Assembly (NCBI GenBank): GCA_963848635.1
Contig: CAWKEA010000002.1
Location: forward strand, 13,464 to 77,463
From: an uncultured bacterium
Lineage (GTDB): Bacteria > Patescibacteriota > Minisyncoccia > Phycocordibacterales > PALSA-1337
Direction: 5' to 3'
Length of the DNA stretch: 64,000 nt
Shown: positions 12,833 through 64,000 of the stretch, in pieces
How positions within the stretch are numbered: the stretch's first letter is position 1
Layout of the letters: every line of letters begins with the position of its first letter
Made by a program: the position numbers and the translations under genes
Notes under the pieces: model-generated
Seen by the model: only the letters and a program-made list of their open reading frames with translations
The model's database searches: none
What the model was told of the DNA's origin: nothing

Positions 12833-12862
12833 CAAAAGTCAGCCTTTCACAAAATGAGATTA

Positions 12863-12897
12863 AGAAATCTTTACAAATTTTTTAACTTTTCTTAATG
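12863..12897 (+). promoter_or_regulatory. Recurrent 35-bp promoter-like motif, copy A (AAGAAATCTTTAcAAaTtTTTTAACTTTTCTTAATG), with a TATAAT box 12 bp downstream
   Basis: Near-identical to copy C at 20404-20439 and similar to copy B at 15915-15950. Confidence 0.5.
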
Positions 12898-12919
12898 ATC
12901 ATTATATATAATTTGCGAT

Positions 12920-13318
12920 ATGAATGAAGAATATGTAAAGGAATTCGATCTTTGGAATACCAGGAAAAAAGAGATCGAGAAATCAGTTGTCGAACGTCTA
13001 TGCCACGAACGAGAAGTCTGGTGGTGTGCGCTTGGCGTCAATATTGGCTTGGAACAAGATGGTAAAAATGAATTATTTGAAAGACCGGTTCTAATCCTAA
13101 AGAGATACAACAAAAACTTGGTTCTCATTTTACCCGTTACAAGCACAGAAAAAGACAATGCATATTATGTGAAGATAAAGAGTGCCATGGCTTCAAGCGT
13201 CATTTTGTCGCAAATCAGATCAATAGACAGTAAAAGGCTCTTAAGAAAGGCGGGAATGATTTCCATGAAAGAATATCTTTTCATATTCTTTAGCCTTCTT
13301 AGAACATTGCTACCATAA
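12920..13318 (+). CDS. PemK/MazF-family endoribonuclease toxin-like protein with no adjacent antitoxin ORF
   Basis: GLEQDGKNELFERPVLILK ... LILPVTST ... SVILSQIRSIDSKR matches the MazF/Kid fold signature. Confidence 0.65.
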   Translation: MNEEYVKEFDLWNTRKKEIEKSVVERLCHEREVWWCALGVNIGLEQDGKNELFERPVLILKRYNKNLVLILPVTSTEKDNAYYVKIKSAMASSVILSQIRSIDSKRLLRKAGMISMKEYLFIFFSLLRTLLP

Positions 13319-13445
13319 AAGACGAAACCCCGCCAAAAATATGAATTTAAGGCGGGGAATCTCGGAGGCCGAAGCCATTGTACTGATATTTTAGCAAACC
13401 TACCTCCTTTGTCAACCAATGCTTGTAAAATGTTGTAAAAAAGAA

Positions 13446-15260
13446 TCACTCCTTCCTCCTTTTCCTCACGTCTTCCAACTTTCTTGAGAGCTCATGGCAC
13501 AGCTTGCCTGCGGCGTTCGATTTGTCGATATCCTTCTCCCGTTCGGCGGCGGCGAGGTCGGCCATGGCCTCCGCAAGCCTCCCCTTTAATATATCTTCCT
13601 CGAAATTGATCATGAGCTCGTCGAGCTCTTTTTTGATGTCGCGGCCTTCACCGTAGGTGATCTCTGCCTCAAGGACGAGCTCGTCGCGAAATGGAGCGAT
13701 ATCGGCGATCATCTTGTCATATCCGTCGCCGACGATCTCTCGGAGATGATCAAAGTAGCCTTTTGGCGCGATAGATGATTTTTCAGGGCTCTTTTCGATT
13801 GAAGTAAGGATGCCGAAGAGCTTGCGCGCGACCATGTCGAGGCGTGCCGGCGAGGCAGGCTTTGGAGCTGTGGCATTATCCCTCGCCGTTGCGAGCGCGG
13901 CCCGAGATTCCGAAGCGGCTTCGGCAGATTTCTTTTCAAGGACGGACTTGAGGTCATCGCGAACCGCTTCTTCGGACAGGCCGGTTTTGGTGTGGATCAT
14001 CTTGATCCAGTGCGAGCGCTCCATACTGCCCTTGACCTCGGCGATGAAGGGCAAGACCTTTTCTCGGATGGCTGTCGGGAGCTTCCGCGGATCGAGCTTG
14101 GCTTTGCCGTCGGACGAAACAGTTTCCTTCATGATGCCGTCGAGGACGAATTCGACGATCGGCTTTGCGTGGCGCAGAGTTTCCTTCCAATTCTCGGGAT
14201 TTGCAAGGACAAGATCGGCGGGATCCTTCCCCCCTTCTATATCGGCGATTTTGACATCCATGCCGAGATTGAGGGCGATGCGAGCGGCGCGGAGAGCTGC
14301 GTTGTGACCCGCTTTGTCTGAATCAAAAGCAATGAGCAAGATTCGGCGACAAGCGGCGGATGATGCCGAGATTGTTCGTCACCTGCTCGCGTGAGATGGT
14401 ATCGTCAGCGAGCGCGTGCCCGAGGCCGCGACGGTATTCTTTATTCCCGCCTGATGCGACATGATGAGGTCCATCTGGCCTTCAACCAGAATCGTATAAT
14501 CCTTTTTGCGGATCTCGCTTTTCGCCTTGTCGATGCCGTAGAGAACGGCTGATTTATCGTAGAGCGGCGTGTCCGGCGTGTTTATATACTTGCCCTCGCC
14601 TTCCTTTTCATGAAGCAAACGGCCGGAAAATGCGATAACGCGGCCGGATGAATCCATGATCGGAAACATGACGCGGTCGCGGAAACGGTCGTAATAATTG
14701 CCGGATCCGTCTTTCCTTCTTGACCAGGCCCGCCTTCTCCATATCGGCTGTCCGCTCACGATCCTCTTTTTGGACGAGGGCGTCGTCGCGAGATGCCGCC
14801 AACCCTCAGGAACAAAGCCGATGCGGAATTCCTTGATCGTCTCGTCTGTGACTCCCCTTTTCTTCAGATATTCTTTCGCTTCGCCGGAAAGCTGCGACTG
14901 GTAGAAAATCGCGGCGGCCTCCATGACTGAATAGCAGCACGCTCGCGCTCGGTTTTTCTTTTCCCGATTTTCAAAAGCGATAGGAATGCCCGCGCGCTCT
15001 GCCAACAATTTCAAGGCGCCCATGAAATCGAGCCCTTCGAACTGCTCGACAAACGTGAAGATGTCGCCCTTCGCCCCGCAACCGAAGCAATAGAACGAGC
15101 CGCGATCAGGCGACACAAAGAACGACGCTGTCTTTTCATTATGGAACGGACAGCGGCCTTTGAAGTTCTTGCCCGCCTTTTCCAGCTTCATATACGACGA
15201 AATGACCTCCTCGACGCCGAGGCGCTCTTTTATCAAATCGACTGTGGAGCGGTCTCTCAT
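13446..15260 (-). CDS. dnaG: DNA primase DnaG, interrupted by two compensating single-nucleotide frameshifts within about 14340-14400 (ORF fragments 14379..15260 and 13446..14339)
   Basis: The upstream fragment has the zinc-finger CPFHNEKTASF, the RNA-polymerase domain and the start of TOPRIM (ILVEGQMDLIMSHQAGIKNTVAASGT). The downstream fragment continues TOPRIM (LIAFDSDKAGHNAALRA). The intervening 27 codons read in a third frame as ALADDTISREQVTNNLGIIRRLS. Confidence 0.8.
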
Positions 15261-15355
15261 GCGCGTATTGTACGCTTTTTACACGTTATACTCAAACCAT
15301 GGTCGGAAATAAAAAAGCGCCACTGTGAAGCGAGCGCTTGTGACACCAATCCGGA

Positions 15356-15889
15356 TTAATGTTTGACAGCATCTTTCCAATAACGGAACGTGCTTTTCTC
15401 GATCGAACCTGGGTACTGTTCCTCAACTTCCTGCAAAGCCGCCAAAAATGCTCGCGACTCTTCTCGGAGACCAAGCATGGTTAGACACTTCAGGATGCGT
15501 GTAATCCGGAGCAAATTATGGTTTTGAGGTGTAAGCCAATGCTCCGCTTGTCGCCGGAAAACGACTCGTGTGTTGCCGATGACGACTTTTCCTTGAACGG
15601 ACCCCATCGTAAAACCATAGAATTTAAGCATCCGTGCAAATGATCTCAGAAGATTACTGCGGAGTTTTGCAACAGACAGAAAGGCTTGGATATCCTCTGC
15701 GGTGAGCACAGGCGCATCAGAATTGAATCGGCTTGGTTCAGGCCACTGAATGTAATCGTGGACAGTCTCGAGCCTGTTGTCGTTCCACGAAAGGATCTCA
15801 CTGAGAGTCCGGCCATTAGCATCGAATCCTCTTCCAGAATAGAAACGTGTAAAAACGGTTGTGGTTTTCATCTGACTGCAGATAACCAC
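15356..15889 (-). CDS. OGFr-conserved-region-like domain protein (hypothetical)
   Basis: 177 aa, resembling the bacterial OGFr N-terminal conserved region (HDYIQWPEP ... NHNLLRITRILKCL). Confidence 0.45.
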   Translation of the reverse strand: MVICSQMKTTTVFTRFYSGRGFDANGRTLSEILSWNDNRLETVHDYIQWPEPSRFNSDAPVLTAEDIQAFLSVAKLRSNLLRSFARMLKFYGFTMGSVQGKVVIGNTRVVFRRQAEHWLTPQNHNLLRITRILKCLTMLGLREESRAFLAALQEVEEQYPGSIEKSTFRYWKDAVKH

Positions 15890-15914
15890 GATTCACCGAT
15901 CTTTGCAAGTCAAA

Positions 15915-15950
15915 ATTTTCTTTATAAAAAATTTAACCTTTCTTAATAAC
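15915..15950 (+). promoter_or_regulatory. Recurrent promoter-like motif, copy B (TTTTCTTTATAAAAAATTTAACCTTTCTTAATAACC), plus a TATAAT box at 15959-15964
   Basis: Shares TCTTTATAA..TTTAAC(C/T)TTTCTTAAT with copies A and C and drives the structured RNA downstream. Confidence 0.5.
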
Positions 15951-15970
15951 CAATTTTATATAATTGCATT

Positions 15971-16272
15971 CGAATGATCATTTTGACCTGTGGGGGTACC
16001 AGTGGTTGGGAGTTCCTCCTTGCTAGTTGGAGCTCGGGGGTTCGACTCCCCCTACCTCCACAGGGCAAAGTGATTATTGGCGATGTAGAGTGAGAGAAAT
16101 ACAAGAGTAATCTTTCGTAGTTCCGGACCGAGAAGCTATGAAAGTAAACTTAATTCACAGCATTCACTTGCATTTACTTACAAATTAGCTTATACTTTCC
16201 TTACAACTAGCAAGGAGGAGCCAATCAATGGTGAGTCCAACATAAATCCGCTTCGGCGGGTTTTGTGTTTTT
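15971..16272 (+). ncRNA. Structured RNA with a 5' tRNA-like domain and a long-range 16-bp helix; tmRNA-like (ssrA?) candidate of unusual topology
   Basis: The tRNA-like domain spans 15992-16060. It has a 5' acceptor strand GGGGGUA, a GG-containing D-analog, a T-arm GGGGG-UUCGACU-CCCCC, and a 3' acceptor strand UACCUCC+A forming a 7-bp stem with G3:U70. The 16-nt segment 16014-16029 is perfectly complementary to 16204-16219. The transcript ends at a hairpin plus U-tract at 16248-16272. No canonical ...LAA tag ORF was found. Confidence 0.4.
16248..16272 (+). terminator. Rho-independent terminator (CCGC-TTCG-GCGG + GTTTTGTGTTTTT), convergent with the mnmA stop
   Basis: A tetraloop hairpin followed by a T-rich tract. 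Confidence 0.6.
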
Positions 16273-17464
16273 ATAGAATCACTCCTCCTCCCAAGCAAAT
16301 TTCCCCCTCATACACGACGAGCGACTGCCCTCCCGTCAGAGCGTTCTGCGGCTTGTCGAATTCGATCGTGGCGGTTCCCTGCCTGCCGGCAGGCATGGTT
16401 TCCTTTTCATTAATTGAAGTAAAGACAAGCGATTCGAGCGGCTGGCGGTAGCGCGCGCGACCGGAATATTTTTTGCCAACTACCGGAGTTCCGCTCATCC
16501 AATTCGTCTTTTCGAGCTTGACCGACGTCTTCGCCTCTGCCAAAAGCCCATGCTTGTCCTTGTTCGAGACAGTGATCGTATTCTTGTCGAGATCTTTTGC
16601 CACAATGTAATACGGCTCGTCATGCGGCGTTTTCTTGTCGATGACAAATCCATGCCTCTCGCCGATCGTCAGAAAGAACGCGCCGTCGTGGCGGCCGATC
16701 GCGTTTCCTGCTTCATCCAAAACTTCCCCAGCTTTCGGCTCCATATAATGAGAAAGGAATTCCTTTATATCGACTTTACCAATAAAACAAAGGCCTTGGC
16801 TGTCTTTCTTTTCAGCATTCGGCAATTTGAATTTACGTGCCAGCTTGCGTACATCCGGCTTTTCGATGTCGCCTATCGGAAAAAGTATATGGGGCAGCTG
16901 TTCCGTGCGGATGTTCCAGAGAAAGTATGACTGGTCCTTGTTCGGATCGGAGCCAGCCAAAAGTTTCAAGTTGCAAGTTGCAAGTTGCAAGTTATTTTTT
17001 TCTTCACTTGTCACTTGTAACTTATCACTTGTAACTATTTTCGCATAATGCCCGGTCGCCACGAAATCAGCGCCTTGACCGATCGCCCAATCGTAGAACG
17101 CGCCGAATTTGACGCTCTTGTTGCACATGACGTCCGGATTCGGAGTACGGCCCGCCCGATATTCGGCGATCATATAGTCGACGACGTAGCGCTTGTATTC
17201 CTTTTCGAGATCGAGCGTCAAAAATGGTATGTCCAAAACAGCGGCGACGCGCATAGCATCCAGCCGGTCCTGCCGCCAATTGCAGTCCATCCAATCCGGT
17301 TGCCAGACTTTTATGAAGACGCCCATGACGTCATATCCTGCCGCCTTCAAAAGCGCCGCCGAAACCGAGCTATCGACGCCGCCGGACATGCCGACAAAAA
17401 CGCGTTTGGCGTGATTTTTGATTTTTGTGCTTTTAGTTTTCCCTTGACCTTTCATTCTTGGCAT
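16271..17464 (-). CDS. mnmA: tRNA-specific 2-thiouridylase MnmA
   Basis: PP-loop FVGMSGGVDSSVSAALL, the catalytic Cys region, and a C-terminal beta-barrel. The likely start is MPRMKG at 17464. Contains the in-frame repeat insertion at 16961-17037. Confidence 0.85.
   Translation of the reverse strand: MPRMKGQGKTKSTKIKNHAKRVFVGMSGGVDSSVSAALLKAAGYDVMGVFIKVWQPDWMDCNWRQDRLDAMRVAAVLDIPFLTLDLEKEYKRYVVDYMIAEYRAGRTPNPDVMCNKSVKFGAFYDWAIGQGADFVATGHYAKIVTSDKLQVTSEEKNNLQLATCNLKLLAGSDPNKDQSYFLWNIRTEQLPHILFPIGDIEKPDVRKLARKFKLPNAEKKDSQGLCFIGKVDIKEFLSHYMEPKAGEVLDEAGNAIGRHDGAFFLTIGERHGFVIDKKTPHDEPYYIVAKDLDKNTITVSNKDKHGLLAEAKTSVKLEKTNWMSGTPVVGKKYSGRARYRQPLESLVFTSINEKETMPAGRQGTATIEFDKPQNALTGGQSLVVYEGEICLGGGVIL
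16961..17037. repeat. Tandem heptamer (GCAAGTT, 4-5 copies) and its inverted partner (CACTTGTAAC-like, 3 copies), forming an imperfect hairpin inside the mnmA coding sequence
   Basis: The run aagtttcaagttgcaagttgcaagttgcaagtt ... cacttgtcacttgtaacttatcacttgtaac. It is in frame and encodes ...KLQVTSEEKNNLQLATCNLKLL... Confidence 0.6.
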
Positions 17465-17506
17465 GATATCAAAATAAGCAGAAACGAACAAGAAGAAAGA
17501 ACTTTT

Positions 17507-17872
17507 ATGAAAATATTGTTGATCGACCCCAATGCAAAGAGGCGTCGTTTGCTCTTGCGGCAACTCGAAGATGCTGGCCATAGTGTCGTGACAACCGACA
17601 GTACGGAAAAAGCAGAGAGCTACATGCGGCACTGGAAACCAGATGTACTGGTCAGCGCCGACGAAAAAATCACGGGGACCGATATTTATGAAGATACTAA
17701 GGCTGTCAACGAGCCATTTGTGCAGGAACCTCCATCTGTAACCATTACAGCACTGTGCCCCGAATCGAAAAGAACGTCAGGACGGCAAATCGACGACCCA
17801 AGCGTTTACCTCAAAACGTTGTTTGAATCAGGGATACTCAAAGATCCGGACGGTCGTAAGCGTCACAATTAG
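17507..17872 (+). CDS. Stand-alone response-regulator receiver (CheY-like) domain protein
   Basis: MKILLIDPNAKRRRLLLRQLEDAGHSVVTTD...PDVLVSADEKITG. The ORF-track entry 17048-17872 extends upstream antisense into mnmA, and that portion is rejected. Confidence 0.5.
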   Translation: MKILLIDPNAKRRRLLLRQLEDAGHSVVTTDSTEKAESYMRHWKPDVLVSADEKITGTDIYEDTKAVNEPFVQEPPSVTITALCPESKRTSGRQIDDPSVYLKTLFESGILKDPDGRKRHN

Positions 17873-17932
17873 AAGCCGGGCAATCCTCGGCTTCTTTTTT
17901 TATTGAGCATAAAGGCCATACCCGCTCGACTG

Positions 17933-19033
17933 CTACAGATATTTCGACTCATTCGCTATCTGGCCGTCATAGGTATCCGAATAATGGATGTTCCCCTTTG
18001 AATCAGATAGATAATACCAGTAGGTAGTGCTCGCCGGAGAAAGAGCGTCCTCGATGGCCGAAAGGCCAGGATTGCCGATCGGCGATGGCGGCAAGCCGCG
18101 ATTTCTATATGTGTTAAAGGGGGAATCAGTGGCCAGATCGCCGGACGTGAGCTTTGTCCCATTCTTGTCGAGAGCATAGGCAAGGACGGCATCGACTTCG
18201 AGAGGCATCTTATCATCGAGGCGCTTCCAGAGTATGCCCGCGATGATGCGGCGATCAGACGACGACGTCGCTTCGCGTTCGAGGATAGAGGCCATGATGA
18301 CGATGGATGAGGTCGCATGGCCTGAAACAGCGACACCAGCGCTCTCTCCAACGACCTTCTTGTTAAAAAGGTCCTGCATAGCCTGTATCGCATCGTCAGG
18401 CGATGTTTTTATGTTGAAAAAATATGTGTCAGGGAAAAGATATCCTTCAAGAGGTTTTGCTTCGGCTAGAAACGTCGAAGTCGCAAAGCCGGGAATATCC
18501 TTGCCAAGGATCCCCGAGATCTGTTCTGCGTCGAATCCCTCGGGGATGGTCACTTTTATCGGCATCAATCCCTGCTCTCCGTGAACAAGCCTCCATGCGA
18601 TCTCTATCACGGATTCCTTCGAAGCAAAGAGGTAATCGCCTGCTTTTATACCTCTTTGACCAGACAAAATGACGACCAACGATTTGAAAAGGGCTTCAGA
18701 TTTTATCAAATGGTCGACATAAAGTCCGCTTGTTACCTGGCCGAGCGACGAATTTCCTTCGATATGGAATGTGGTCTCCGCTGGAAAATCAGATGGGGGG
18801 ATCGTCGCGAAGACCGCCATGACAAAAACTACTGCCACACAAAAGATTCCCGCGGCTATAATGGACTTCTTTTGAAAGACGGGCGCTTTCGACAGCAGTG
18901 GCGGCAAAGCGTCTGAACGATCCATCGGCACGCCATATTTCATGTCCGCCGGCGCTAAAGAAGGCGGCTTTTCAGTCGCGTTATCCGCATCGCTTTCATA
19001 TTTCAGAGGCTTGAGATTGTCTGATAGTTCCAT
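17933..19033 (-). CDS. mltG: Endolytic murein transglycosylase MltG (YceG family)
   Basis: An N-terminal TM helix plus the YceG domain (GYLFPDTYFF ... ASILEREA ... NTYRNRGLPPSPIGNPG). Confidence 0.85.
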   Translation of the reverse strand: MELSDNLKPLKYESDADNATEKPPSLAPADMKYGVPMDRSDALPPLLSKAPVFQKKSIIAAGIFCVAVVFVMAVFATIPPSDFPAETTFHIEGNSSLGQVTSGLYVDHLIKSEALFKSLVVILSGQRGIKAGDYLFASKESVIEIAWRLVHGEQGLMPIKVTIPEGFDAEQISGILGKDIPGFATSTFLAEAKPLEGYLFPDTYFFNIKTSPDDAIQAMQDLFNKKVVGESAGVAVSGHATSSIVIMASILEREATSSSDRRIIAGILWKRLDDKMPLEVDAVLAYALDKNGTKLTSGDLATDSPFNTYRNRGLPPSPIGNPGLSAIEDALSPASTTYWYYLSDSKGNIHYSDTYDGQIANESKYL

Positions 19034-19043
19034 AGGATTCCGA

Positions 19044-20312
19044 TCACATCGGTATATTGGCTGGCGCTTCGCCCTTCTTTGACGGCACGCGGGTAAGCGT
19101 CGGGGTCGCCACGACTTGGCCCGGGAAATGATAGATGGTCGCGAGAGATTCCGAGCTCATGATCATAGGCTTGCCTTTATGCGGCGCATAAAAATACGAT
19201 CGTCGCTTGTACATAGCAAGCGAGCCTTCGGAATGGCCCTCTTTTTTCTTGCCACGAATATCCTGCCAAGGATAGCTTATACTTCCGTGCCATGCAGAGG
19301 CCGGCTTGAAGCCGTTCATGTGCTCGTTATTGAATTGCTTCCAGCTCCCGAGCATTCCGGCGATATTGGTCGGATTGAAATTGTCTTTTTGAGCCACATA
19401 CACGAGGCGTATGCCGACATCGAACCCGAGCTTTGAGATATTTCGCTCGATAGCAGCAATGATCTCCTCTTCGCCTTCGGTGAGATCGACTTTTTCCGCC
19501 TTATCTGCGCCTTCCTTTTTCTTCGTAGATTTGGTCTTCTCATCGCGATTCATCGTGTCATTGATTATCTTCTTTGCTTCCTCGCGCCATTTGTCATGCG
19601 ATTTCCAGATATGACCAGGCTTCGTATGATCGTCCTTTTTATACGCGCGGACGAGAATCTGTATCCAAGCTTGTTGATTCGCCCCGATCGATCCCAGAAA
19701 TTCAATGAGCGGCGCCATCGGATCGATCTTGAATTCTTCCTTTGGATCCTTGTTCAAGCCGTAATCGACATAGCTTTTTATGGGATACGAACTCTCCATC
19801 TTGCCGTCTTTATCCTTTGTAAAAGTAAGCTCTTCCGCCCAAACACTAACCGTGTCCTTGTCAAAATGCACCGACTGAGCATAATCTTCCACGTCATGGA
19901 CCTCGATGCCGGGAAACTGGGCGTAGAGCGAGGTCGAGATGAAATTCTTGAACGATTTCCTCATCCAGATAAAAAAATGTATCTGGCCTTCGATCGACAC
20001 GAGCTCGAGCGAGAACCATGGCCGCGTCTTGCCGAGCCAATATTTCGAATACCAGTCGCCTTCGCCTCCGGTCTGGTGGAGGGCTGTGAGAAATAGCTCC
20101 ATGGACGCCGGCGATTTCATGATCACTTTGGGCAATTTTATTTCGATCATAGCGTAGCTTTCCTTGAAAAAGAACTTCGCCCGGATGTATTCGACCCATT
20201 TATTGGCAAAGACAAGGAGCAAAACGAACATGACTGCCAAAGGCAGTAAAGCTATGACGATAACCTCTATTTGCTGAACCTGTACAGCTGACAAGCTTAT
20301 ATACTCGCTCAT
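19044..20312 (-). CDS. Hypothetical membrane-anchored protein (422 aa)
   Basis: An N-terminal TM helix and a large Lys-rich soluble domain. I recognise no family. Confidence 0.45.
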   Translation of the reverse strand: MSEYISLSAVQVQQIEVIVIALLPLAVMFVLLLVFANKWVEYIRAKFFFKESYAMIEIKLPKVIMKSPASMELFLTALHQTGGEGDWYSKYWLGKTRPWFSLELVSIEGQIHFFIWMRKSFKNFISTSLYAQFPGIEVHDVEDYAQSVHFDKDTVSVWAEELTFTKDKDGKMESSYPIKSYVDYGLNKDPKEEFKIDPMAPLIEFLGSIGANQQAWIQILVRAYKKDDHTKPGHIWKSHDKWREEAKKIINDTMNRDEKTKSTKKKEGADKAEKVDLTEGEEEIIAAIERNISKLGFDVGIRLVYVAQKDNFNPTNIAGMLGSWKQFNNEHMNGFKPASAWHGSISYPWQDIRGKKKEGHSEGSLAMYKRRSYFYAPHKGKPMIMSSESLATIYHFPGQVVATPTLTRVPSKKGEAPANIPM

Positions 20313-20403
20313 ATAACAATCATACCATATACGATACAGACGTTAGTCACAGATTCCTTGCAATGCAAGATCGGATCTCTACGCATAGATCGGATCTTGT
20401 ATA

Positions 20404-20439
20404 AAGAAATCTTTATAATTATTTTAACTTTTCTTAATG
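20404..20439 (+). promoter_or_regulatory. Recurrent promoter-like motif, copy C (AAGAAATCTTTATAATTATTTTAACTTTTCTTAATGG)
   Basis: 33 of 35 identical to copy A. It lies upstream of the peptidase gene. Confidence 0.5.
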
Positions 20440-20484
20440 GCTGTCTTTTATACTGTAGGAATTACTAGGTAAAAAATAAAAAAC

Positions 20485-21687
20485 ATGAGAAATAATGCGC
20501 AACGCGCGATCGGTGCAGTGGTTTTATTGATGATTGGTTTTATGGTGACGGAGAGCACTCCCTGCTTTGATTATTTCAACAAGCCTATTTTTGTCCATGC
20601 AAGCGTCATCCCTTCGCTCGACACTTTCACTGCGCGACCGCCGATACACATCTTCGCTGGCGCAACGGCAGGACCATCAGGCTTATCCCCTTCTCTTGTA
20701 AAAAAGGCGTACGGTTTGCCATCGACAGGCGGCGGAGGCACTATCGCTATCATTGCCGCCTTCAATCATCCGAATATCGCGAGCGATTTGGCGGCTTTTG
20801 TGAAAGAATTCTCATTGAGCTCGTGCACCTCCACAAACAAATGTCTCGAGATCCATCCGATGAATCCAGCGGCAAAAGACGACTCTGGCTGGTCAATGGA
20901 AACGGCTCTCGACACGGAATGGTCGCACGCCATAGCCCCCTCGGCAAAGATCCTCGTAGTCGAAGCGGCATCCGACAGCGGCACAAACCTCATGAGAGCA
21001 GTCGATTACGCCCGCACGAGAAGCGATGTCGTCGCCGTATCTATGAGCTGGGGCGGGAACGAATTCATTGGCGAGACGGATCTCGACAAGCATTTCGGAG
21101 CAAGCACTTCGATGGCATTCTTTGCATCGTCCGGTGACGACGGCGCCGGGGCCAGTTGGCCGGCGGCTTCGCCAAATGTCATATCAGTCGGAGGCACTTC
21201 CCTTATGCTCAGCATAAAAGGCGTCCTATCATCTGAAAAGGCATGGGCTGGATCAGGCGGCGGAACAAGCGCTTACGAAAGCGAGCCTGCATATCAAAGC
21301 GCTTATTCCATCCCGCGCGCAGGCGGCAAGCGCGCCATCCCTGACGTCGCATTTGCGGCAGATCCACGATATGGATTCTCTGTCTATCATGCGCCCGACT
21401 CTTCATCTTTGATCGCTTCTTCAAAGTCGTCTGTAAAGAATTGGTATGTCGTAGGCGGAACCTCGGCCGGTGCGCCGCAATGGGCCGCCATCGCCGCGCT
21501 CGCTTTTGCGGCAAAAGACCCTATTTCCCTATCAAAGCTTTACCAGGATAAAGCGGCCTCGTCATATGCAAAATTCTTCCGTGACATCACGAGCGGCGGC
21601 AACGGCGATTGTGCCTATTTTTGCACGGCACGCAAACATTACGACTATGTGACGGGATTAGGCTCGCCGGTGACGGATAAGTTTTGA
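20485..21687 (+). CDS. Subtilase-superfamily serine peptidase (S8/S53, sedolisin-like), secreted
   Basis: A signal-anchor N-terminus, an Asp region IAIIAAFNHP, and a Ser motif GGTSAGAPQWAAIAAL. Confidence 0.65.
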   Translation: MRNNAQRAIGAVVLLMIGFMVTESTPCFDYFNKPIFVHASVIPSLDTFTARPPIHIFAGATAGPSGLSPSLVKKAYGLPSTGGGGTIAIIAAFNHPNIASDLAAFVKEFSLSSCTSTNKCLEIHPMNPAAKDDSGWSMETALDTEWSHAIAPSAKILVVEAASDSGTNLMRAVDYARTRSDVVAVSMSWGGNEFIGETDLDKHFGASTSMAFFASSGDDGAGASWPAASPNVISVGGTSLMLSIKGVLSSEKAWAGSGGGTSAYESEPAYQSAYSIPRAGGKRAIPDVAFAADPRYGFSVYHAPDSSSLIASSKSSVKNWYVVGGTSAGAPQWAAIAALAFAAKDPISLSKLYQDKAASSYAKFFRDITSGGNGDCAYFCTARKHYDYVTGLGSPVTDKF

Positions 21688-33119: not shown

Positions 33120-33154
33120 TGTACCGTGTCCACTTTATGGGGTACAGATCATTG

Positions 33155-33188
33155 GCTGGCCGTCTGGGACAATATCCGAACGGATTTA
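33155..33188. repeat. Intergenic repeat copy R1 (GCTGGCCGTCTGGGACAATATCCGAACGGATTTA), now separated from any downstream gene by the IS30
   Basis: Identical core to R2. Contains the 12-bp palindrome ATCCGAACGGAT. Confidence 0.6.
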
Positions 33189-33200
33189 TGTTGTTAAAGA

Positions 33201-34187: not shown

Positions 34188-34205
34188 ATTGTACCAAAAT
34201 TACGA

Positions 34206-34239
34206 GCTGGCCGTCTGGGACAATATCCGAACGGATTTA
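34206..34239. repeat. Intergenic repeat copy R2, 15-25 bp upstream of the start of gene 33201-34187 with a TGgTACAAT extended -10-like box in between
   Basis: GCTGGCCGTCTGGGACAATATCCGAACGGATTTA. Confidence 0.6.
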
Positions 34240-34275
34240 AGCCATTAATAATGACGTGGATCGAAGTTAAAACCA

Positions 34276-35022: not shown

Positions 35023-35040
35023 AAATGAATTATAGCAAAA

Positions 35041-35712
35041 TTACGTGCTGGCCGGATGGGACAGTATCCGAACAGTTTTACGCCCATTTATCATATGATA
35101 TGATGTTAGAATGAATATTCTAACGAAGGATGTCAAATTTCTTACGAAATCTGTCGATGACCTACAAAAGGATAATTGGCTTCTGATACAAAAAGACCAA
35201 AGCTTCGATCTTAAATCAAAAGACGGTTTACTCGGCACGATGTTTATTAAAAAAGAAGGCGGTTCGACCATTTCGAAACCACGCACAACCTCGTGCAACG
35301 ATTTAAACTTATTTCTATTGAGACTATGTCCGCCGGTGTTTTCTTGAGCAAGGTACATTTTAATTCTTTTATCTTTGTCAGAGACGCCTTTGTTAATAAG
35401 GGTTAGATTAGTCAATTTGTTTAGATCTTTGTGATATTCTAATCTCTTAAAATTTTCTTTGACCGGCTCAAAGGCATATACTTTGCCTCTCTTTGCCATA
35501 CTTGCGGCATACGCAGAGAACACCCCGACCTGTGCACCGATATCTATAATGACATCGTTTTCTTTCAGGGAAAAATCTTGTTCCTTATTTATTTTAGGAA
35601 AGTAGTTTTTAGAAAAAAACACTTCATTTAAAATTATTTTTTCCTCAAAGGAACTCAATCTAAAGTTAAGAGTCTTACCTTTTTCGTTTTCTACTTTTAT
35701 TGATTTAAACAT
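35041..35712 (-). CDS. FkbM-family SAM-dependent methyltransferase
   Basis: VIIDIGAQVGVFSAYAA ... KVYAFEP ... LINKGVSDKDKRIKMYL. The C-terminal approximately 40 aa read through repeat R3 and may be an ORF-track extension artefact. Confidence 0.65.
   Translation of the reverse strand: MFKSIKVENEKGKTLNFRLSSFEEKIILNEVFFSKNYFPKINKEQDFSLKENDVIIDIGAQVGVFSAYAASMAKRGKVYAFEPVKENFKRLEYHKDLNKLTNLTLINKGVSDKDKRIKMYLAQENTGGHSLNRNKFKSLHEVVRGFEMVEPPSFLINIVPSKPSFDLRSKLWSFCIRSQLSFCRSSTDFVRNLTSFVRIFILTSYHMINGRKTVRILSHPAST
35047..35080. repeat. Intergenic repeat copy R3 (GCTGGCCGgaTGGGACAgTATCCGAACaGtTTTA), upstream of the TauE gene with a TGcTATAAT box
   Basis: Aligns with R0-R2. Confidence 0.6.
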
Positions 35713-35888: not shown

Positions 35889-36863
35889 CTACTGTCCCAT
35901 TTTCTTGACTTCCGATTTAAGTTTTTCCGCATTGCCATAACCCAATAAACCAAGATATGACTGCACTATTTCCGGCTTACCATGATCCAGTTCCAGTCTT
36001 TTGAACATTCTCTTTTTCGTAACTGTCCTTAGCACGTCATGAACAGGAAAATGTACCCAACCCAAGAAGTCCACTCCTGAAGCAAGTGTCCGAATACTGA
36101 TTTTATTCGGGTGAAGCTCTAATGCTAATTTTTCATGTAGGAAATTTCCAACCTTGACCAAGATCTGTTCTAGCCATGCTTTATCTCTGCTCATGATCAC
36201 GAAATCATCTGCATAGCGGATATAATGTTCCGCCTTTAGATCGTGCTTCATGAACTGGTCGAACTCATTCATATAGACGTTAACCAAGAGTTGCGAGGTT
36301 AGATTACCCAATGGCAATCCTTTGCCTATTGCAGTACTGCTAAAACTGTCAGTCACTCGCCTGATAAGATCAATAACGTCGACATCAGTAATGTATTTTT
36401 TCAGGATTTCTGAAAGAATTTTTTGGCCTATAGAGGCAAAGAATTTCCGTACATCGCATTTCAGGATCCACAATGTCTTAGTATTGTTTTTACTCGCAAT
36501 ATTGGCAAACTCCCTAAAGCGCTTTAACGCACGATGGGTGCCGCGCAATTTTCTACAGGAATATGAATCGTGAATAAAATGAATGTCGAAAAGCGGATAG
36601 AGCTTTCGATAGAGGGCATGGTGAAGAAGCCTGTCGCGCACGGTCGCTTTGTGGATATTCCTCGGCTTCGGGTCGGAAATATTGAAAGCATGATATCCAC
36701 CGTGAGCATAGGTTTTATTTTTGAGATCGGAATGCAGAGCAAAGATGTTGTCAGAAAGCTTGTACTGGAATTCCTGCACGTCTTTCTTGCCTCGTTTTCC
36801 TTTTAGAAATTCTTTCCAAGCTTCAAGCAAATTTTCTAAAGAAATGATATGGTTGTACATCAT
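35889..36863 (-). CDS. Diversity-generating retroelement (DGR) reverse transcriptase
   Basis: RT motifs 1-7 with YADDFVI, plus the DGR-characteristic motif 4 GLPLGNLTSQLLVNVYMNEFD (SQ in place of SP). About 325 aa with no maturase or endonuclease domain. The ORF extends to 36941 across a (CT)n run; the likely start is MMYNH at 36863. Confidence 0.8.
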   Translation of the reverse strand: MMYNHIISLENLLEAWKEFLKGKRGKKDVQEFQYKLSDNIFALHSDLKNKTYAHGGYHAFNISDPKPRNIHKATVRDRLLHHALYRKLYPLFDIHFIHDSYSCRKLRGTHRALKRFREFANIASKNNTKTLWILKCDVRKFFASIGQKILSEILKKYITDVDVIDLIRRVTDSFSSTAIGKGLPLGNLTSQLLVNVYMNEFDQFMKHDLKAEHYIRYADDFVIMSRDKAWLEQILVKVGNFLHEKLALELHPNKISIRTLASGVDFLGWVHFPVHDVLRTVTKKRMFKRLELDHGKPEIVQSYLGLLGYGNAEKLKSEVKKMGQ

Positions 36864-36898
36864 GAATAATTTAAAAACAGAAATAACCGTGGAGCGGA

Positions 36899-37324
36899 AT
36901 GATGGAGAAAAGAGAGAGAGAGAGAGAGAGAGGAAAAACACAGCCGATTAGACTGATTCCCGTCGTACTGAAGTTAAAGGACGCCTACAATATCTGGCAA
37001 AACTACCTTTCAAGTTTTCCGAAAGCTAACCGCTATACGATCGGGTCAAAGATAGACATCCTCTTTCTTGAAGCAATTGAATACGCCTTTCAGGCGAGCT
37101 ATACCCATACTGAGGAAAAGCGGTTGTTGTTGAACAAGAGCATATCCAAAGTTGACCTCGTTAAATTACTCCTGCAACTGTCATGGGAAATCAAAGCTAT
37201 GGACAACAAGAAATACGCTCACTTGGCTGAACGCTTTGCTGAGATTGGTAAGATGCTGGGCGGTTGGAAACGACAGCTTCAAAACAAAACTCCTCCGACG
37301 GAATCAGAGGAGAAACAGCAATAG
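36899..37324 (+). CDS. avd: Avd-like accessory variability determinant (four-helix-bundle / 23S-rRNA-IVS protein family), divergent from the RT
   Basis: 141 aa. The C-terminal half, LVKLLLQLSWEIKAMDNKKYAHLAERFAEIGKMLGGWKR, matches the IVS/Avd helical pattern. The N-terminus carries a poly(ER) stretch from a (GA)9 repeat. Confidence 0.6.
   Translation: MMEKRERERERGKTQPIRLIPVVLKLKDAYNIWQNYLSSFPKANRYTIGSKIDILFLEAIEYAFQASYTHTEEKRLLLNKSISKVDLVKLLLQLSWEIKAMDNKKYAHLAERFAEIGKMLGGWKRQLQNKTPPTESEEKQQ
36911..36930. repeat. (GA)9-10 dinucleotide microsatellite at the divergent RT/avd start region
   Basis: gagagagagagagagagag, seen directly. Confidence 0.8.
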
Positions 37325-43345: not shown

Positions 43346-43411
43346 CTAATCGGACTCGGGTCTCGGCAATGCGAATGCCGCGTCGTACCACTAGACCATA
43401 GGCCCTCAATC

Positions 43412-43752
43412 GTCAAACTTTCCTTGTCGGGGTGCCGGGAATCGGTCACGGATAATTTCCTCGCCGTCGCTCGAAAATTTCCGCGACCCCGCCTCGCAGT
43501 CTCGCCATGCTCGGCTCGACTAGCTCCGGCTTTCGATTCCCTTTCGCCGCAAGCTTTGCTTGCTAACTTCAACTGTCAAACTTTCCTTGTCGGGGTGCCG
43601 GGAATCGGTCACGGATAATTTCCTCGCCGTCGCTCGAAAATTTCCGCGACCCCGCCTCGCAGTCTCGCCATGCTCGGCTCGACTAGCTCCGGCTTTCGAT
43701 TCCCTTTCGCCGCAAGCTTTGCTTGCTAACTTCAACTGTCAAACTTTCCTTG
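43412..43752. repeat. Tandem repeat of about 162 bp, two full copies plus a third that merges into tRNA-Pro. Each copy ends with a duplicated tRNA-Pro 3' fragment, about 26 nt in minus sense (CGATTCCCGGCACCCCGA).
   Basis: Units start at 43412, 43574 and about 43736. The ORF-track peptides MKLASKACGE... and MLTSTVKLSL... in this region are repeat artefacts. Confidence 0.7.
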
Positions 43753-43823
43753 TCGGGGTGCCGGGAATCGAACCCGGACCTCACACTCCCGAAGCGTGTA
43801 TACTACCACTATACTACACCCCG
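43753..43823 (-). tRNA. tRNA-Pro (anticodon CGG)
   Basis: Acceptor CGGGGTG/CACCCCG+A, as in typical tRNA-Pro; T-arm CCGGG-TTCGATT-CCCGG; anticodon loop TTCGGGA. The D-arm fold by hand is imperfect. Confidence 0.7.
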
Positions 43824-63333: not shown

Positions 63334-64000
63334 ATGAAAATACTTTTTGTAGACGACGACGCGGAGCTCCGCGATATAATGACAGACAATCTGCAGTCAG
63401 AGTCGTATACCGTCGACACCGCCCCCGATGGCAAAAAAGGCTCATACATGGCCCGCACGAACCGCTATGATCTCGTTATACTTGATTATTCGATGCCTGA
63501 AAAGAACGGCCAAGTAGTGGTGCAAGAGATCAGAGGAGCCGGCTTGACTATGCCGATAGTGCTCCTTTCGGTCATCGATGACATCGAGAAGAAAGTGGCG
63601 ATCTTGGAAAGCGGAGCCGATGATTATGTCGAGAAGCCTTTTGCTTATACCGAACTCTCGGCCCGAATAAAAGCCATATTGCGCAGGCCACCACAGATCA
63701 AGCAGGAGATAATGGCCGTAGGCGATATCGTACTCGACCTTGGAAGCAATACTGTCACCCTAGCCGGATCGCCTTTGTATCTTACGCGAAAAGAATTCAA
63801 TCTTTTGCAGTATCTCGTCAGCAACAAAAATACCGTGCTGTCGCGAAGCATGATCATGGAGCATGTTTGGAATGCCGATAGCGACCCTTTTTCGAATACG
63901 ATCGAGGCTCATATCACAAATCTGCGCAAAAAGATACGTCGGAAAAATTGCGATTATATACGAAATGTGCCGGGCCGCGGCTACATGATCACGGATGGAA
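63334..64000 (+). CDS. OmpR-family two-component response regulator, 3' end beyond the window
   Basis: A receiver domain (MKILFVDDDAELRD ... DLVILDYSMPEKNG ... phospho-Asp) and a winged-helix (LTRKEFNLLQYLVSNKNTVLSRSMIMEHVW). No stop before position 64000. Confidence 0.8.
   Translation, partial: MKILFVDDDAELRDIMTDNLQSESYTVDTAPDGKKGSYMARTNRYDLVILDYSMPEKNGQVVVQEIRGAGLTMPIVLLSVIDDIEKKVAILESGADDYVEKPFAYTELSARIKAILRRPPQIKQEIMAVGDIVLDLGSNTVTLAGSPLYLTRKEFNLLQYLVSNKNTVLSRSMIMEHVWNADSDPFSNTIEAHITNLRKKIRRKNCDYIRNVPGRGYMITDG

What the first reader, a model, noticed from the sequence alone, without database searches (positions are those of the whole stretch)
12863..20439. Near-identical 35-bp promoter-like motif upstream of three unrelated genes (MazF-like toxin, the tmRNA-like RNA, the S8/S53 peptidase)
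Copies A (12863-12897) and C (20404-20439) are identical at 33 of 35 positions: AAGAAATCTTTA(C/T)AA(A/T)T(T/A)TTTTAACTTTTCTTAATG. Copy B (15915-15950) shares TCTTTATAA...TTTAAC(C/T)TTTCTTAAT. In A and B a TATAAT box follows 10-12 bp downstream.

This level of conservation in non-coding DNA points to a dedicated strong promoter with a UP-element or -35 variant, or to a binding site for one regulator. In either case the three outputs would be co-controlled, and one of them is a toxin-like endoribonuclease.
Basis: seen in the sequence. Interest (0 to 1): 0.55.

Follow-up and report, generated by a model that had tools for sequence, protein, structure and literature searches.

The report
Conserved regulon promoter in Saccharibacteria
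A nearly invariant promoter module of about 50 bases precedes three unrelated genes here and, in sister genomes of this uncultured Saccharibacteria clade, the DNA-uptake and recombination genes, so it probably marks one co-regulated, competence-like gene set whose regulator is unknown.

Summary
Three + strand copies of TCTTTAYAA-N4-TTTAACYTTTCTTAAT lie at 12868-12896, 15919-15947 and 20410-20438; none is expected by chance. Nothing else in the 64 kb scores even a third as well.

It is the upstream half of a promoter. A TAnnnT -10 box follows at exactly 10 nt (43/47) or 11 nt (4/47) in 47 non-redundant copies from related Saccharibacteria. In about 20 of them the start codon lies 6-8 nt after the -10, which implies leaderless mRNA.

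It is not the ordinary promoter. gyrA, hisS, rpoD, dnaG, pyrG, ftsX, uppP and two tRNAs in the window lack it. Ordinary promoters here are TTGACA/TGn-TATAAT types.

In a syntenic sister genome (CAZMFR01), copies with at most one mismatch precede:
- comM, dprA-topA, comF and a comGA-like pilus operon
- rpsF-ssb and a recA operon
- MazF-like and S8-peptidase genes homologous to the window's, the MazF-like one syntenic

The best reading is the cis-element of a competence/recombination-type regulon, read by an unidentified factor. Its architecture is two 22-bp direct repeats ending 10 nt before the -10, with no -35. This resembles PhoB pho-box and PafBC hybrid promoters.

Only the "tmRNA-like" label fails.

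The parts
12859..12897 (+). Motif copy A (invariant core 12868-12896), about -51 to -23 relative to the inferred start
12907..12912 (+). -10 box TATAAT of copy A, 10 nt after the motif and 7 nt before the ATG
12920..13318 (+). PemK/MazF-like ORF (132 aa). No Shine-Dalgarno sequence, so probably a leaderless mRNA. No antitoxin gene upstream.
15910..15948 (+). Motif copy B (core 15919-15947, TTTAACC variant)
15959..15964 (+). -10 box TATAAT of copy B, 11 nt after the motif
15992..16060 (+). tRNA-like domain of the RNA driven by copy B. It has a 7-bp acceptor stem with G3:U70, a T-arm at 16036-16052, and an arm at 16015-16029 complementary to 16204-16218.
16168..16272 (+). Internal canonical promoter-like site (TTGCAT-17 nt-TATACT, 16168-16196), a short RNA segment and the conserved terminator (16244-16272) of the same RNA locus
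20401..20439 (+). Motif copy C (core 20410-20438). Here the upstream flank forms the near-palindrome TATAAAGAAATCTTTATA.
20449..20454 (+). -10 box TATACT of copy C, 10 nt after the motif
20485..21687 (+). S8 (subtilase) peptidase ORF of 400 aa with a signal-peptide-like N-terminus and an A-rich leader of about 24 nt without a Shine-Dalgarno sequence

Best explanation
The 29-nt motif is the upstream recognition module of a special promoter class in one clade of Saccharibacteria (Patescibacteria).

**Architecture.** The full element has four parts:
1. Two copies of a 22-bp unit (ATTTTAACTTT-TCTTWATAACT). In some genomes, including the window's copies A and C, the distal half is inverted.
2. A variable stretch of 10 nt.
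3. A sigma-70-type -10 box (TATAAT or TATACT).
4. A start 6-8 nt further on, which is often the A of the ATG, giving a leaderless mRNA.

**Mechanism.** There is no usable -35 hexamer, and a TG extension is rare. I infer that a dedicated sequence-specific factor occupies about -60 to -23 and recruits RNA polymerase carrying the housekeeping sigma to the -10. The most likely factor is an activator that binds tandem direct repeats, as OmpR/PhoB-family regulators do at pho boxes or PafBC does at its -26 element. Less likely, region 4 of an alternative sigma reads it.

**Regulon.** All genes carrying the element would then be switched together. In the sister genome CAZMFR01 that set is dominated by DNA-uptake and recombination genes: comM, dprA, comF, a comGA-like pilus operon, ssb and recA. 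The regulon is therefore most likely a competence or DNA-recombination programme.

The three window targets are recurrent accessory members of that programme: an orphan MazF-like RNase, a tRNA-like RNA and a secreted S8 peptidase.

**Shown:** the element, its fixed geometry relative to the -10 box and start codon, its conservation above coding sequence, and its gene set.

**Inferred:** co-regulation, the identity and sign of the factor, and the physiological label.
For: **Promoter geometry.** The -10 box lies at 10 nt in 43/47 non-redundant copies and at 11 nt in 4/47; 25 are perfect TATAAT. About 20 copies have ATG or GTG 6-8 nt after the -10.

**Discrete class.** The window scores are 42-49 bits for the three copies and below 14 for everything else. 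The distribution is also bimodal over 421 kb of loci.

**Distinct from ordinary promoters.**
- dnaG has TTGAGT-17-TACAAT and another window gene has TTGACA-17-TATTAT; several window genes have TGnTATAAT.
- Only 6/47 motif promoters have a TG extension, and the -35 position reads AACTTT.
- None of the identifiable housekeeping genes (about 20) or the 2 tRNAs in the window carries the motif.

**Selection on the motif.**
- It is identical upstream of comM genes whose coding DNA has diverged (L036, L030, L051).
- It is also identical upstream of MazF-like genes with about 40% protein identity.
- Orthologue-based look-ups, which are unbiased, show graded decay. MazF-linked copies in L064 and L061 have 1 and 2 mismatches. 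The comM-linked copy in L069 keeps TTTTAACTTTTCTTAAT-N10-TATACT. In L067 only TTTCTTAAT remains.

**Gene set.**
- The 7 exact copies in MAG CAZMFR01 precede comM (TIGR00368, 535 bits), dprA (TIGR00732, 201 bits), a ComF-family gene, a GspE/PilB/ComGA-like ATPase followed by platform and pilin genes, rpsF-ssb, a coiled-coil gene plus recA, and an IS200/RAYT gene.
- The same genome has one-mismatch copies at its MazF-like gene, which is syntenic with the window (L064).
- It also has a one-mismatch copy at its S8 peptidase. L014 is 99.97% identical to CAZMFR contig 1.

**Repeat architecture.** A 22-bp duplication ends 10 nt before the -10. At the same position, a more distant comM promoter (L068) has three 11-bp direct repeats: TTGTYAT-N4, then N10, then TACTGT.

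**Published context.**
- Natural competence that depends on ComEC has been shown for Saccharibacteria; the same paper notes DprA and ComFC as conserved com components (PMC10633639).
- A toxin-antitoxin pair is a competence-regulon member in H. influenzae (PMC6957337).
Against: - There are no transcript data. Start sites and co-regulation are inferred from sequence only.
- The core com genes with the motif were seen in sister genomes, not in the window's own genome, of which only 64 kb could be read.
- The set also contains genes with no obvious link to competence: IS200/RAYT transposases, a family of 117-143 aa proteins, YafQ, NYN, Bro-N and LCAT-like secreted proteins. rpsF is a housekeeping gene.
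- One 20-kb island (L061) holds 6 copies. This could indicate spread by duplication rather than one physiological programme.
- No candidate factor is tied to the motif. The OmpR-family regulator gene at 63334-64000 is only circumstantial.
- Many ordinary promoters here also lack a good -35, so the lack of a -35 does not prove dependence on an activator. A repressor would fit the position equally well.
- The 47 copies were collected by exact match, which overstates how invariant the motif is.
Confidence: 0.6

Rival explanations
1. Constitutive strong-promoter module. The T-rich, phased sequence acts like an extended UP element or curved DNA that boosts a -10-only promoter through RNA polymerase itself (alpha C-terminal domain or sigma), with no dedicated regulator. 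The genes share it only because they need high expression, or because the cassette was copied.
For: - The sequence is A/T-rich with T-tracts in helical phase.
- The -10 boxes are very good.
- The targets include typically abundant products: a pilin, the rpsF operon and small RNAs.
- Six copies lie in one 20-kb island.
Against: - UP elements tolerate much variation. Here the C positions are fixed and conservation runs down to -23, well inside the spacer.
- The score distribution is bimodal rather than graded.
- No gyrA, rpoD, hisS, pyrG, tRNA, L31, RF-1, L11 or nusG promoter in 64 + 20 + 20 kb carries a copy scoring 25 bits or more; the only weak matches near such genes are 16-22 bits upstream of nusG in L065/L066, where the motif is degenerate anyway.
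- The enrichment for transformation genes in one genome is hard to explain by expression level.
Confidence: 0.2
2. Promoter of an alternative sigma factor. TTTAAC (or the whole proximal block) would be the -35 element, and TATAAT the -10 element, of a competence- or stress-specific sigma, analogous to ComX/SigH in Firmicutes.
For: - The spacing between the motif and the -10 box is rigid.
- The sites form a discrete class.
- The gene set parallels the late competence genes driven by ComX/SigH; that comparison rests on my own knowledge.
Against: - The -10 box is the housekeeping consensus.
- The TTTAAC-to-TATAAT spacer would be 19 nt, long for sigma-70-family factors.
- The conserved stretch is about 40-50 nt with an internal 22-bp duplication, far more than a -35 hexamer.
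- In L065 the degenerate motif lies about one helical turn further from the -10 box, which fits a DNA-binding protein better than sigma region 4.
- The only sigma gene seen is rpoD.
Confidence: 0.12
3. Operator of a repressor. In an SOS-like logic, the motif would overlap the place where sigma region 4 sits, and a bound repressor would keep otherwise active -10-only promoters off until a signal arrives.
For: - The motif spans -51 to -23.
- The -10 boxes are near-consensus, and many promoters here work without a -35.
- recA, ssb and toxin genes are classic SOS members; that comparison rests on my own knowledge.
- In the window's lineage the distal half forms a near-palindrome, TATAAAGAAATCTTTATA.
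Against: - The conserved organisation is a direct repeat, not a palindrome, in most genomes.
- The motif never overlaps the -10 box or the start.
- No LexA-type box is present.
Confidence: 0.08

Closest known systems
Pho boxes and other OmpR/PhoB-family activator sites (E. coli PhoB, B. subtilis/Streptomyces PhoP)
   Same: - Tandem direct repeats in helical phase replace the -35 element.
- They end about 10 bp upstream of a sigma-70-type -10 box.
- Several repeat units span about -60 to -20.

The 11-nt direct repeat units are described in PMC2275107. The positional details come from my own knowledge.
   Different: - The repeat sequence is unrelated to CTGTCAT or TTAACA-type boxes.
- The true period here is 22 bp, with two unlike 11-bp halves.
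- No pst/phoU-type gene was seen downstream.
- No cognate regulator is linked. An OmpR-family gene at 63334-64000 is only a candidate.
PafBC-dependent hybrid promoters (RecA-NDp) of mycobacteria, read by 'sigma adaptation'
   Same: - A canonical -10 box is combined with a factor-specific upstream element separated by N10, with no -35: tGTCgg(N10)tA(N3)T (PMC8635444).
- The regulon is centred on recA and DNA metabolism.
- The host organism has many leaderless genes.
   Different: - The element sequence differs. It is far longer here (about 40 nt against 6 nt) and duplicated.
- No WYL-domain protein was found in the window.
- Pilus and uptake genes are included.
Competence regulons: ComX cin-box (streptococci), ComK box (B. 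subtilis), Sxy/CRP-S sites (H. influenzae)
   Same: - One shared cis-signal lies upstream of the pilus ATPase operon, comF, dprA, ssb, recA and comM.
- A toxin gene is a regulon member, as in H. influenzae (PMC6957337).
- Saccharibacteria are naturally competent (PMC10633639).
   Different: None of the known signals is present: cin-box TACGAATA, AAAA-N5-TTTT, or the 22-bp CRP-S palindrome. No comX, comK or sxy homologue was identified. Competence induction has not been tested.
UP elements of strong sigma-70 promoters
   Same: The motif is an A/T-rich module upstream of the core promoter.
   Different: The motif is nearly invariant with fixed C positions, extends to -23, and is absent from housekeeping genes.

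Membership tests
Bacterial sigma-70-type promoter | -10 hexamer TAnnnT at a fixed distance from the conserved upstream element | tested here: met
   47/47 copies have it at 10-11 nt, and 25 are TATAAT. The -10 box was not part of the search pattern.
Bacterial sigma-70-type promoter | -35 hexamer TTGACA-like, 16-18 nt upstream of the -10 box | tested here: not met
   That position reads AACTTT or TAACTT. Canonical promoters in the same DNA do have TTGACA-type hexamers.
Bacterial sigma-70-type promoter | Mapped transcription start downstream of the -10 box | not testable with these tools
   The only support is indirect: the start codon lies 6-8 nt after the -10 box in about 20 copies.
UP element | Degenerate A/T-tract consensus confined to about -40 to -60 | tested here: not met
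   The invariant block extends to -23 with fixed C positions, and scores are bimodal.
OmpR/PhoB-type activator site (pho-box architecture) | Tandem direct repeats in helical register that replace the -35 and end about 10 bp before the -10 box | tested here: met
   There is a 22-bp duplication, equivalent to four 11-bp units of two kinds, ending 10 nt before the -10 box. A distant comM promoter has 3 x 11-bp repeats at the same place.
OmpR/PhoB-type activator site (pho-box architecture) | Cognate winged-helix response regulator that binds the repeats | tested here: inconclusive
   An OmpR-family regulator gene exists at 63334-64000 (31% identity to PhoB). Nothing links it to the motif.
OmpR/PhoB-type activator site (pho-box architecture) | Phosphate-starvation genes (pst, phoU, phosphatases) among the targets | tested here: not met
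   None appears among the annotated downstream genes of the 47 exact copies and about a dozen further non-exact copies; several downstream products remain unidentified.
PafBC-type hybrid promoter | Factor element, N10, canonical -10 box, no -35 | tested here: met
   The comparison is with tGTCgg(N10)tA(N3)T in PMC8635444.
PafBC-type hybrid promoter | tGTCgg element and a WYL-domain activator | tested here: not met
   The sequence differs, and no WYL protein is present in the window. The rest of the genome was not searched.
Competence regulon | One shared cis-signal upstream of DNA-uptake and DNA-processing genes | tested here: met
   The targets in CAZMFR01 and relatives are comM, dprA, comF, a comGA-like operon, a pilin, ssb and recA. 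This could not be shown for the window's own genome.
Competence regulon | Known signal (cin-box, ComK box, CRP-S) or known master regulator | tested here: not met
   The motif matches none of these consensus sequences, as read directly.
Competence regulon | Induction together with transformability | not testable with these tools
   This needs culture or metatranscriptome data.
MITE/REP-type mobile repeat | Terminal inverted repeats or hairpins, either orientation, no fixed relation to genes | tested here: not met
   Every copy is co-oriented with a downstream gene or RNA and in register with the -10 box and start codon. There were no viral-contig hits.
tmRNA (for the RNA downstream of copy B) | Rfam/ARAGORN recognition and a tag reading frame | tested here: not met
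   Rfam gives 16.9 bits against a gathering score of 47, ARAGORN is silent, and no frame is conserved between the window and L027b.

The most novel reading that the evidence does not exclude
The motif may be the first cis-regulatory code deciphered for a Patescibacteria (candidate phyla radiation) lineage. On this reading, a single promoter module of about 50 bp, read by an unknown master regulator, switches on a competence-like state of Saccharibacteria.

That state would couple several functions:
- the DNA-uptake pilus and ComF/DprA/ComM/SSB/RecA
- orphan MazF-like RNases, for growth arrest or RNA remodelling
- secreted S8 proteases and lipase-like proteins, possibly for host or prey lysis that releases DNA
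- a previously undescribed tRNA-like RNA that pairs with a companion RNA segment
Probability: 0.4. Interest if true: 0.75.

Novelty: new member of a known kind. Interest (0 to 1): 0.55.

Why it matters
Saccharibacteria and other Patescibacteria are mostly uncultured, and almost nothing is known about how they regulate genes. My literature searches found no described promoter motif or regulon for them. Natural competence has been shown and is the basis of their only genetic system (PMC10633639), but its control is unknown.

A sharply defined promoter signal has three practical uses:
- It predicts a regulon directly from metagenomes.
- It gives a handle to find the regulator, by phyletic profiling or DNA-affinity methods.
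- It supplies candidate inducible promoter parts for the new genetic tools.

It also attaches testable functions to otherwise opaque genes: orphan MazF-like RNases, a tRNA-like RNA, secreted proteases and a family of 117-143 aa proteins.

Tried and rejected
- **Hairpin or terminator.** The inverted repeat TTAAGAAA...TTTCTTAA in copy A suggested one. I rejected it because the upstream arm is replaced by TTTTAACTTT in about half of the copies.
- **Generic housekeeping promoter.** Rejected, because identified housekeeping genes and tRNAs lack the motif and ordinary promoters look canonical.
- **MITE or mobile repeat, or phage promoter.** Rejected on orientation and register and on zero hits in viral contigs with two patterns.
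- **DNA uptake sequence.** Rejected. There are only about 3 copies per 64 kb, always at promoters and always in one orientation.
- **tmRNA for the RNA after copy B.** Not supported. No reading frame is conserved.
- **Look-ups of window proteins by exact sequence.** These failed for mnmA, gyrA and the 432-aa ORF, probably because of start-codon choice. I therefore could not extend the window's own genome.
- **Rfam on 18 loci carrying RNA-like leaders.** Nothing was found beyond one tRNA.
- **Search for TTGTCAT-N4-TTGTCAT.** Only the single L068 comM site was found, so no second regulon could be defined.
- **PhoB-like regulators in all fetched DNA.** Only the window gene at 63334 and one receiver-only protein were found.


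Full report
**Observation**

The three copies exist as described, all on the + strand and all intergenic: A at 12859-12897, B at 15910-15948 and C at 20401-20439. The degenerate 29-mer TCTTTAYAAWTWTTTTAACTTTTCTTAAT matches them with 0, 3 and 0 mismatches, and had no match in 100 shuffles.

A weight matrix gives 42-49 bits for the three copies and nothing else at or above 14 bits in the 64 kb.

A -10-like hexamer follows at 10, 11 and 10 nt: TATAAT 12907-12912, TATAAT 15959-15964 and TATACT 20449-20454.

- Downstream of A is a PemK/MazF-like ORF whose ATG lies 7 nt after the -10 box.
- Downstream of C is an S8 peptidase ORF behind an A-rich leader of about 24 nt.
- Downstream of B is a structured RNA.

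**Organism and wider occurrence**

One scan of 185,579 species-representative genomes with TCTTTAYAANNNNTTTAACYTTTCTTAAT found 7 exact copies. All were in a single genome, the uncultured Saccharibacteria MAG CAZMFR01.

The metagenome scan found 51 stretches, mostly from related JGI soil or peat-type samples. Two of them are the window organism itself. No viral contig matched.

After removing duplicates there are 47 distinct copies. CAZMFR01 is syntenic with the window: rpoD, the MazF-like gene, dnaG, mnmA, mltG and the M48 peptidase follow in the same order. Its MazF-like protein is 77% identical to the window's.

**It is a promoter module**

The -10 hexamer was not part of the search pattern. 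Even so, a TAnnnT box lies exactly 10 nt (43/47) or 11 nt (4/47) after the motif, and 25 of these are TATAAT.

In about 20 copies an ATG or GTG that opens a long ORF lies 6-8 nt after the -10 box. That is the geometry of a leaderless mRNA. Others begin cATTATTA... and continue with an A-rich leader or a structured RNA. Every copy is co-oriented with what follows.

**It is a special class, not the ordinary promoter**

About 20 window genes look leaderless. Their promoters are canonical:
- TTGAGT-17-TACAAT at dnaG
- TTGACA-17-TATTAT at the DEAD-box helicase gene
- TGnTATAAT at several others

In the motif promoters the -35 position reads AACTTT, and only 6/47 have a TG extension.

Pfam annotation of the window identifies gyrA, hisS, an AddA-like helicase, rpoD, dnaG, mnmA, mltG, purF-like, pyrG, ftsX, uppP, a DEAD-box helicase and RmuC, plus two tRNAs. 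None of them carries the motif.

Over 421 kb of fetched DNA the score distribution is bimodal.

**Conservation**

The motif is identical upstream of comM genes whose coding DNA has clearly diverged (L036, L030, L051). It is also identical upstream of MazF-like genes with only about 40% protein identity.

Look-ups made through protein homologues are not biased by the DNA pattern. They show graded decay:
- MazF-linked copies have 1 mismatch in L064 and 2 in L061.
- The 59%-identical homologue (L065) has only a degenerate remnant, displaced about 11 nt from its -10 box.
- The comM-linked copy at 82% identity (L069) keeps TTTTAACTTTTCTTAAT-N10-TATACT-N6-ATG.
- At 75% identity (L067) only TTTCTTAAT remains.
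- At 63% identity (L068) the same position holds three 11-bp direct repeats of TTGTYAT, then N10, TACTGT, N6 and the ATG.

**Internal structure**

In about half the copies the element is a 22-bp direct duplication, ATTTTAACTTT-TCTTTATAACT / ATTTTAACTTT-TCTTAATAACT, followed by 10 variable nt and the -10 box.

In the window's lineage the distal quarter is inverted. This gives the near-palindrome TATAAAGAAATCTTTATA in copy C.

In CAZMFR01-like genomes a 12-bp palindrome, ACCTCGCGAGGT, lies a further 20 nt or so upstream.

**Gene set**

The 7 exact copies in CAZMFR01 precede:
- comM/yifB (TIGR00368, 535 bits)
- dprA (TIGR00732, 201 bits), followed by topA
- a ComF-family gene
- a GspE/PilB/ComGA-like ATPase, followed by platform and prepilin-like genes
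- rpsF-ssb
- a coiled-coil gene followed directly by recA; this pair also occurs in L061, L039 and L018
- an IS200/RAYT gene

The same genome has one-mismatch copies at its MazF-like gene (L064) and at its S8 peptidase gene (L014 is 99.97% identical to CAZMFR contig 1). So homologues of two of the window's three targets sit in one genome under the same signal as the DNA-uptake and recombination genes, the MazF-like gene in the same syntenic position.

Across all genomes the recurrent members are:

| Member | Occurrence |
|---|---|
| MazF-like genes | at least 10 loci, plus a degenerate copy in L065 |
| tRNA-like RNA | 6 loci |
| S8 peptidase | 4 genomes |
| comM | 3 genomes with exact copies, plus partial copies in L069 and L067 |
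| rpsF-ssb | 3 |
| Coiled-coil gene plus recA | 4 with recA seen, plus L012 where the contig ends first |
| IS200/RAYT | 4 |
| Family of 117-143 aa proteins | at least 8 |

Single or double occurrences are a pilin, YraN, YafQ, NYN, a DUF3800-like gene, Bro-N and two LCAT-like secreted proteins.

As a rough estimate, perhaps a dozen of several hundred transcription units in a genome of about 0.9 Mb serve transformation. Six of seven exact sites falling on such units is therefore very unlikely by chance. This is my inference, not a computed test.

**Mechanism**

Three things are shown:
- A long, nearly invariant element abuts a housekeeping-type -10 box with rigid spacing.
- The element lies where a -35 hexamer should be.
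- It sits in front of a recurrent gene set.

I infer that a dedicated factor reads it and that the genes are co-regulated. Tandem direct repeats ending 10 bp before the -10 box, with the -35 missing, is the architecture of pho-box promoters activated by OmpR/PhoB-family regulators. The 11-nt repeat units are described in PMC2275107; the positional details come from my own knowledge. It is also the architecture of PafBC hybrid promoters, tGTCgg(N10)tA(N3)T, in which the factor inserts between sigma and the DNA (PMC8635444).

The window does encode an OmpR-family regulator at 63334-64000, but nothing ties it to the motif. The rivals still open are an alternative sigma factor, a repressor and a regulator-free UP-like module.

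The label "competence-like" rests on two things: the gene set, and the published demonstration of ComEC-dependent transformation in Saccharibacteria (PMC10633639). A toxin-antitoxin pair inside a competence regulon has a precedent in H. influenzae (PMC6957337).

**Limits**

- There are no transcript data.
- The window organism's own com genes were not seen.
- Collecting copies by exact match inflates the apparent invariance.
- Several members have no evident link to DNA uptake.

**Verdict**

This is a real promoter-associated element that defines a regulon in one Saccharibacteria clade. It is a new member of a known kind, a factor-dependent hybrid promoter, and apparently has not been described.

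Noticed in passing
window 15965-16272; also L024, L027 (two loci), L054, L058: An unannotated, conserved RNA locus lies downstream of copy B. Its parts, in order:
- a short leader hairpin
- a tRNA-like domain of about 70 nt, with G3:U70 in the acceptor stem and the T-arm GGGGGTTCGACTCCCCC
- a variable spacer
- an internal canonical promoter-like site, TTGCAT-17-TATACT (16168-16196)
- a short RNA
- a strongly conserved terminator, TCCGCTTCGGCGGGTTTTGTGTTTTT

The arm at 16015-16029 is perfectly complementary to 16204-16218. In the orthologue L027b both sequences differ but stay complementary (ACCCTCGCCAG / CTGGCGAGGGT), which is covariation. Neither Rfam nor ARAGORN recognises the locus.
   Followed up: partly
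window 13446-15260 (- strand), stop codon at 14379-14381: dnaG is split by a TGA codon inside a stretch of about 75 nt. That stretch is out of frame relative to the intact 599-aa orthologue in L064. The cause is probably a pair of assembly indels, or a damaged gene.
   Followed up: partly
window 33137-33192, 34188-34243, 35029-35084: A second family of promoter-proximal repeats has three copies of ...GCTGGCCGTCTGGGACAATATCCGAACGGATTT.... On the - strand, at least two of the three copies (34188-34243 and 35029-35084) lie directly upstream of TACAAT/TATAAT boxes and leaderless-type starts of consecutive genes; the third was not checked. They sit in a low-GC island (38-39% GC) next to a reverse-transcriptase gene (35889-36941).
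   Followed up: no
window 43406-43823: Tandem 163-nt repeats (99% identical) each end with a copy of the 3' part of tRNA-Pro. They lie next to the intact tRNA-Pro at 43752-43823 and look like repeated integration scars.
   Followed up: no
window 63334-64000: An OmpR/PhoB-family response-regulator gene (31% identity to E. coli PhoB over 223 aa) runs off the end of the window. It is a circumstantial candidate for the factor that reads the direct-repeat motif.
   Followed up: partly
window, about 20 genes (for example 15260, 50379, 41035, 35022, 34181 on the - strand; 47259 on the +): Leaderless-type starts, with a -10 box 5-8 nt before the ATG or GTG, are common in this organism. Many of these promoters have a TGn extension or a TTGACA-like -35.
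   Followed up: partly
L003-L009, L017, L024, L047, L049: A perfect 12-bp palindrome, ACCTCGCGAGGT, lies about 20 nt upstream of the motif in several related genomes but not in the window. It may be a second binding site. Three CAZMFR01 copies share about 110 nt of upstream sequence.
   Followed up: no
L068 9950-9978: In a more distant Patescibacteria genome, the comM promoter carries three 11-bp direct repeats: TTGTTATtttt, TTGTCATaact and TTGTCAT. These are followed by N10, TACTGT, N6 and the ATG. This is a pho-box-like or PafBC-like arrangement at the position the motif occupies in this clade.
   Followed up: partly
L006/L019, L020, L046, L012, L044, L049: IS200/RAYT-type transposase genes carry the motif. 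Conserved REP-like hairpins lie nearby, for example GTCCAAGGGCTACCCTTGGAC and GCGGCGTGGCTATGTATAGCCATGACGT.
   Followed up: no
L061 15700-20200: One 20-kb locus of an 858-kb Saccharibacteria contig holds six motif copies, five of them within about 10 kb. Three of them precede paralogues of an uncharacterised 120-130 aa family (conserved GFxHLxxKG...R...Q..R..LL). One precedes a NYN-domain gene.
   Followed up: partly
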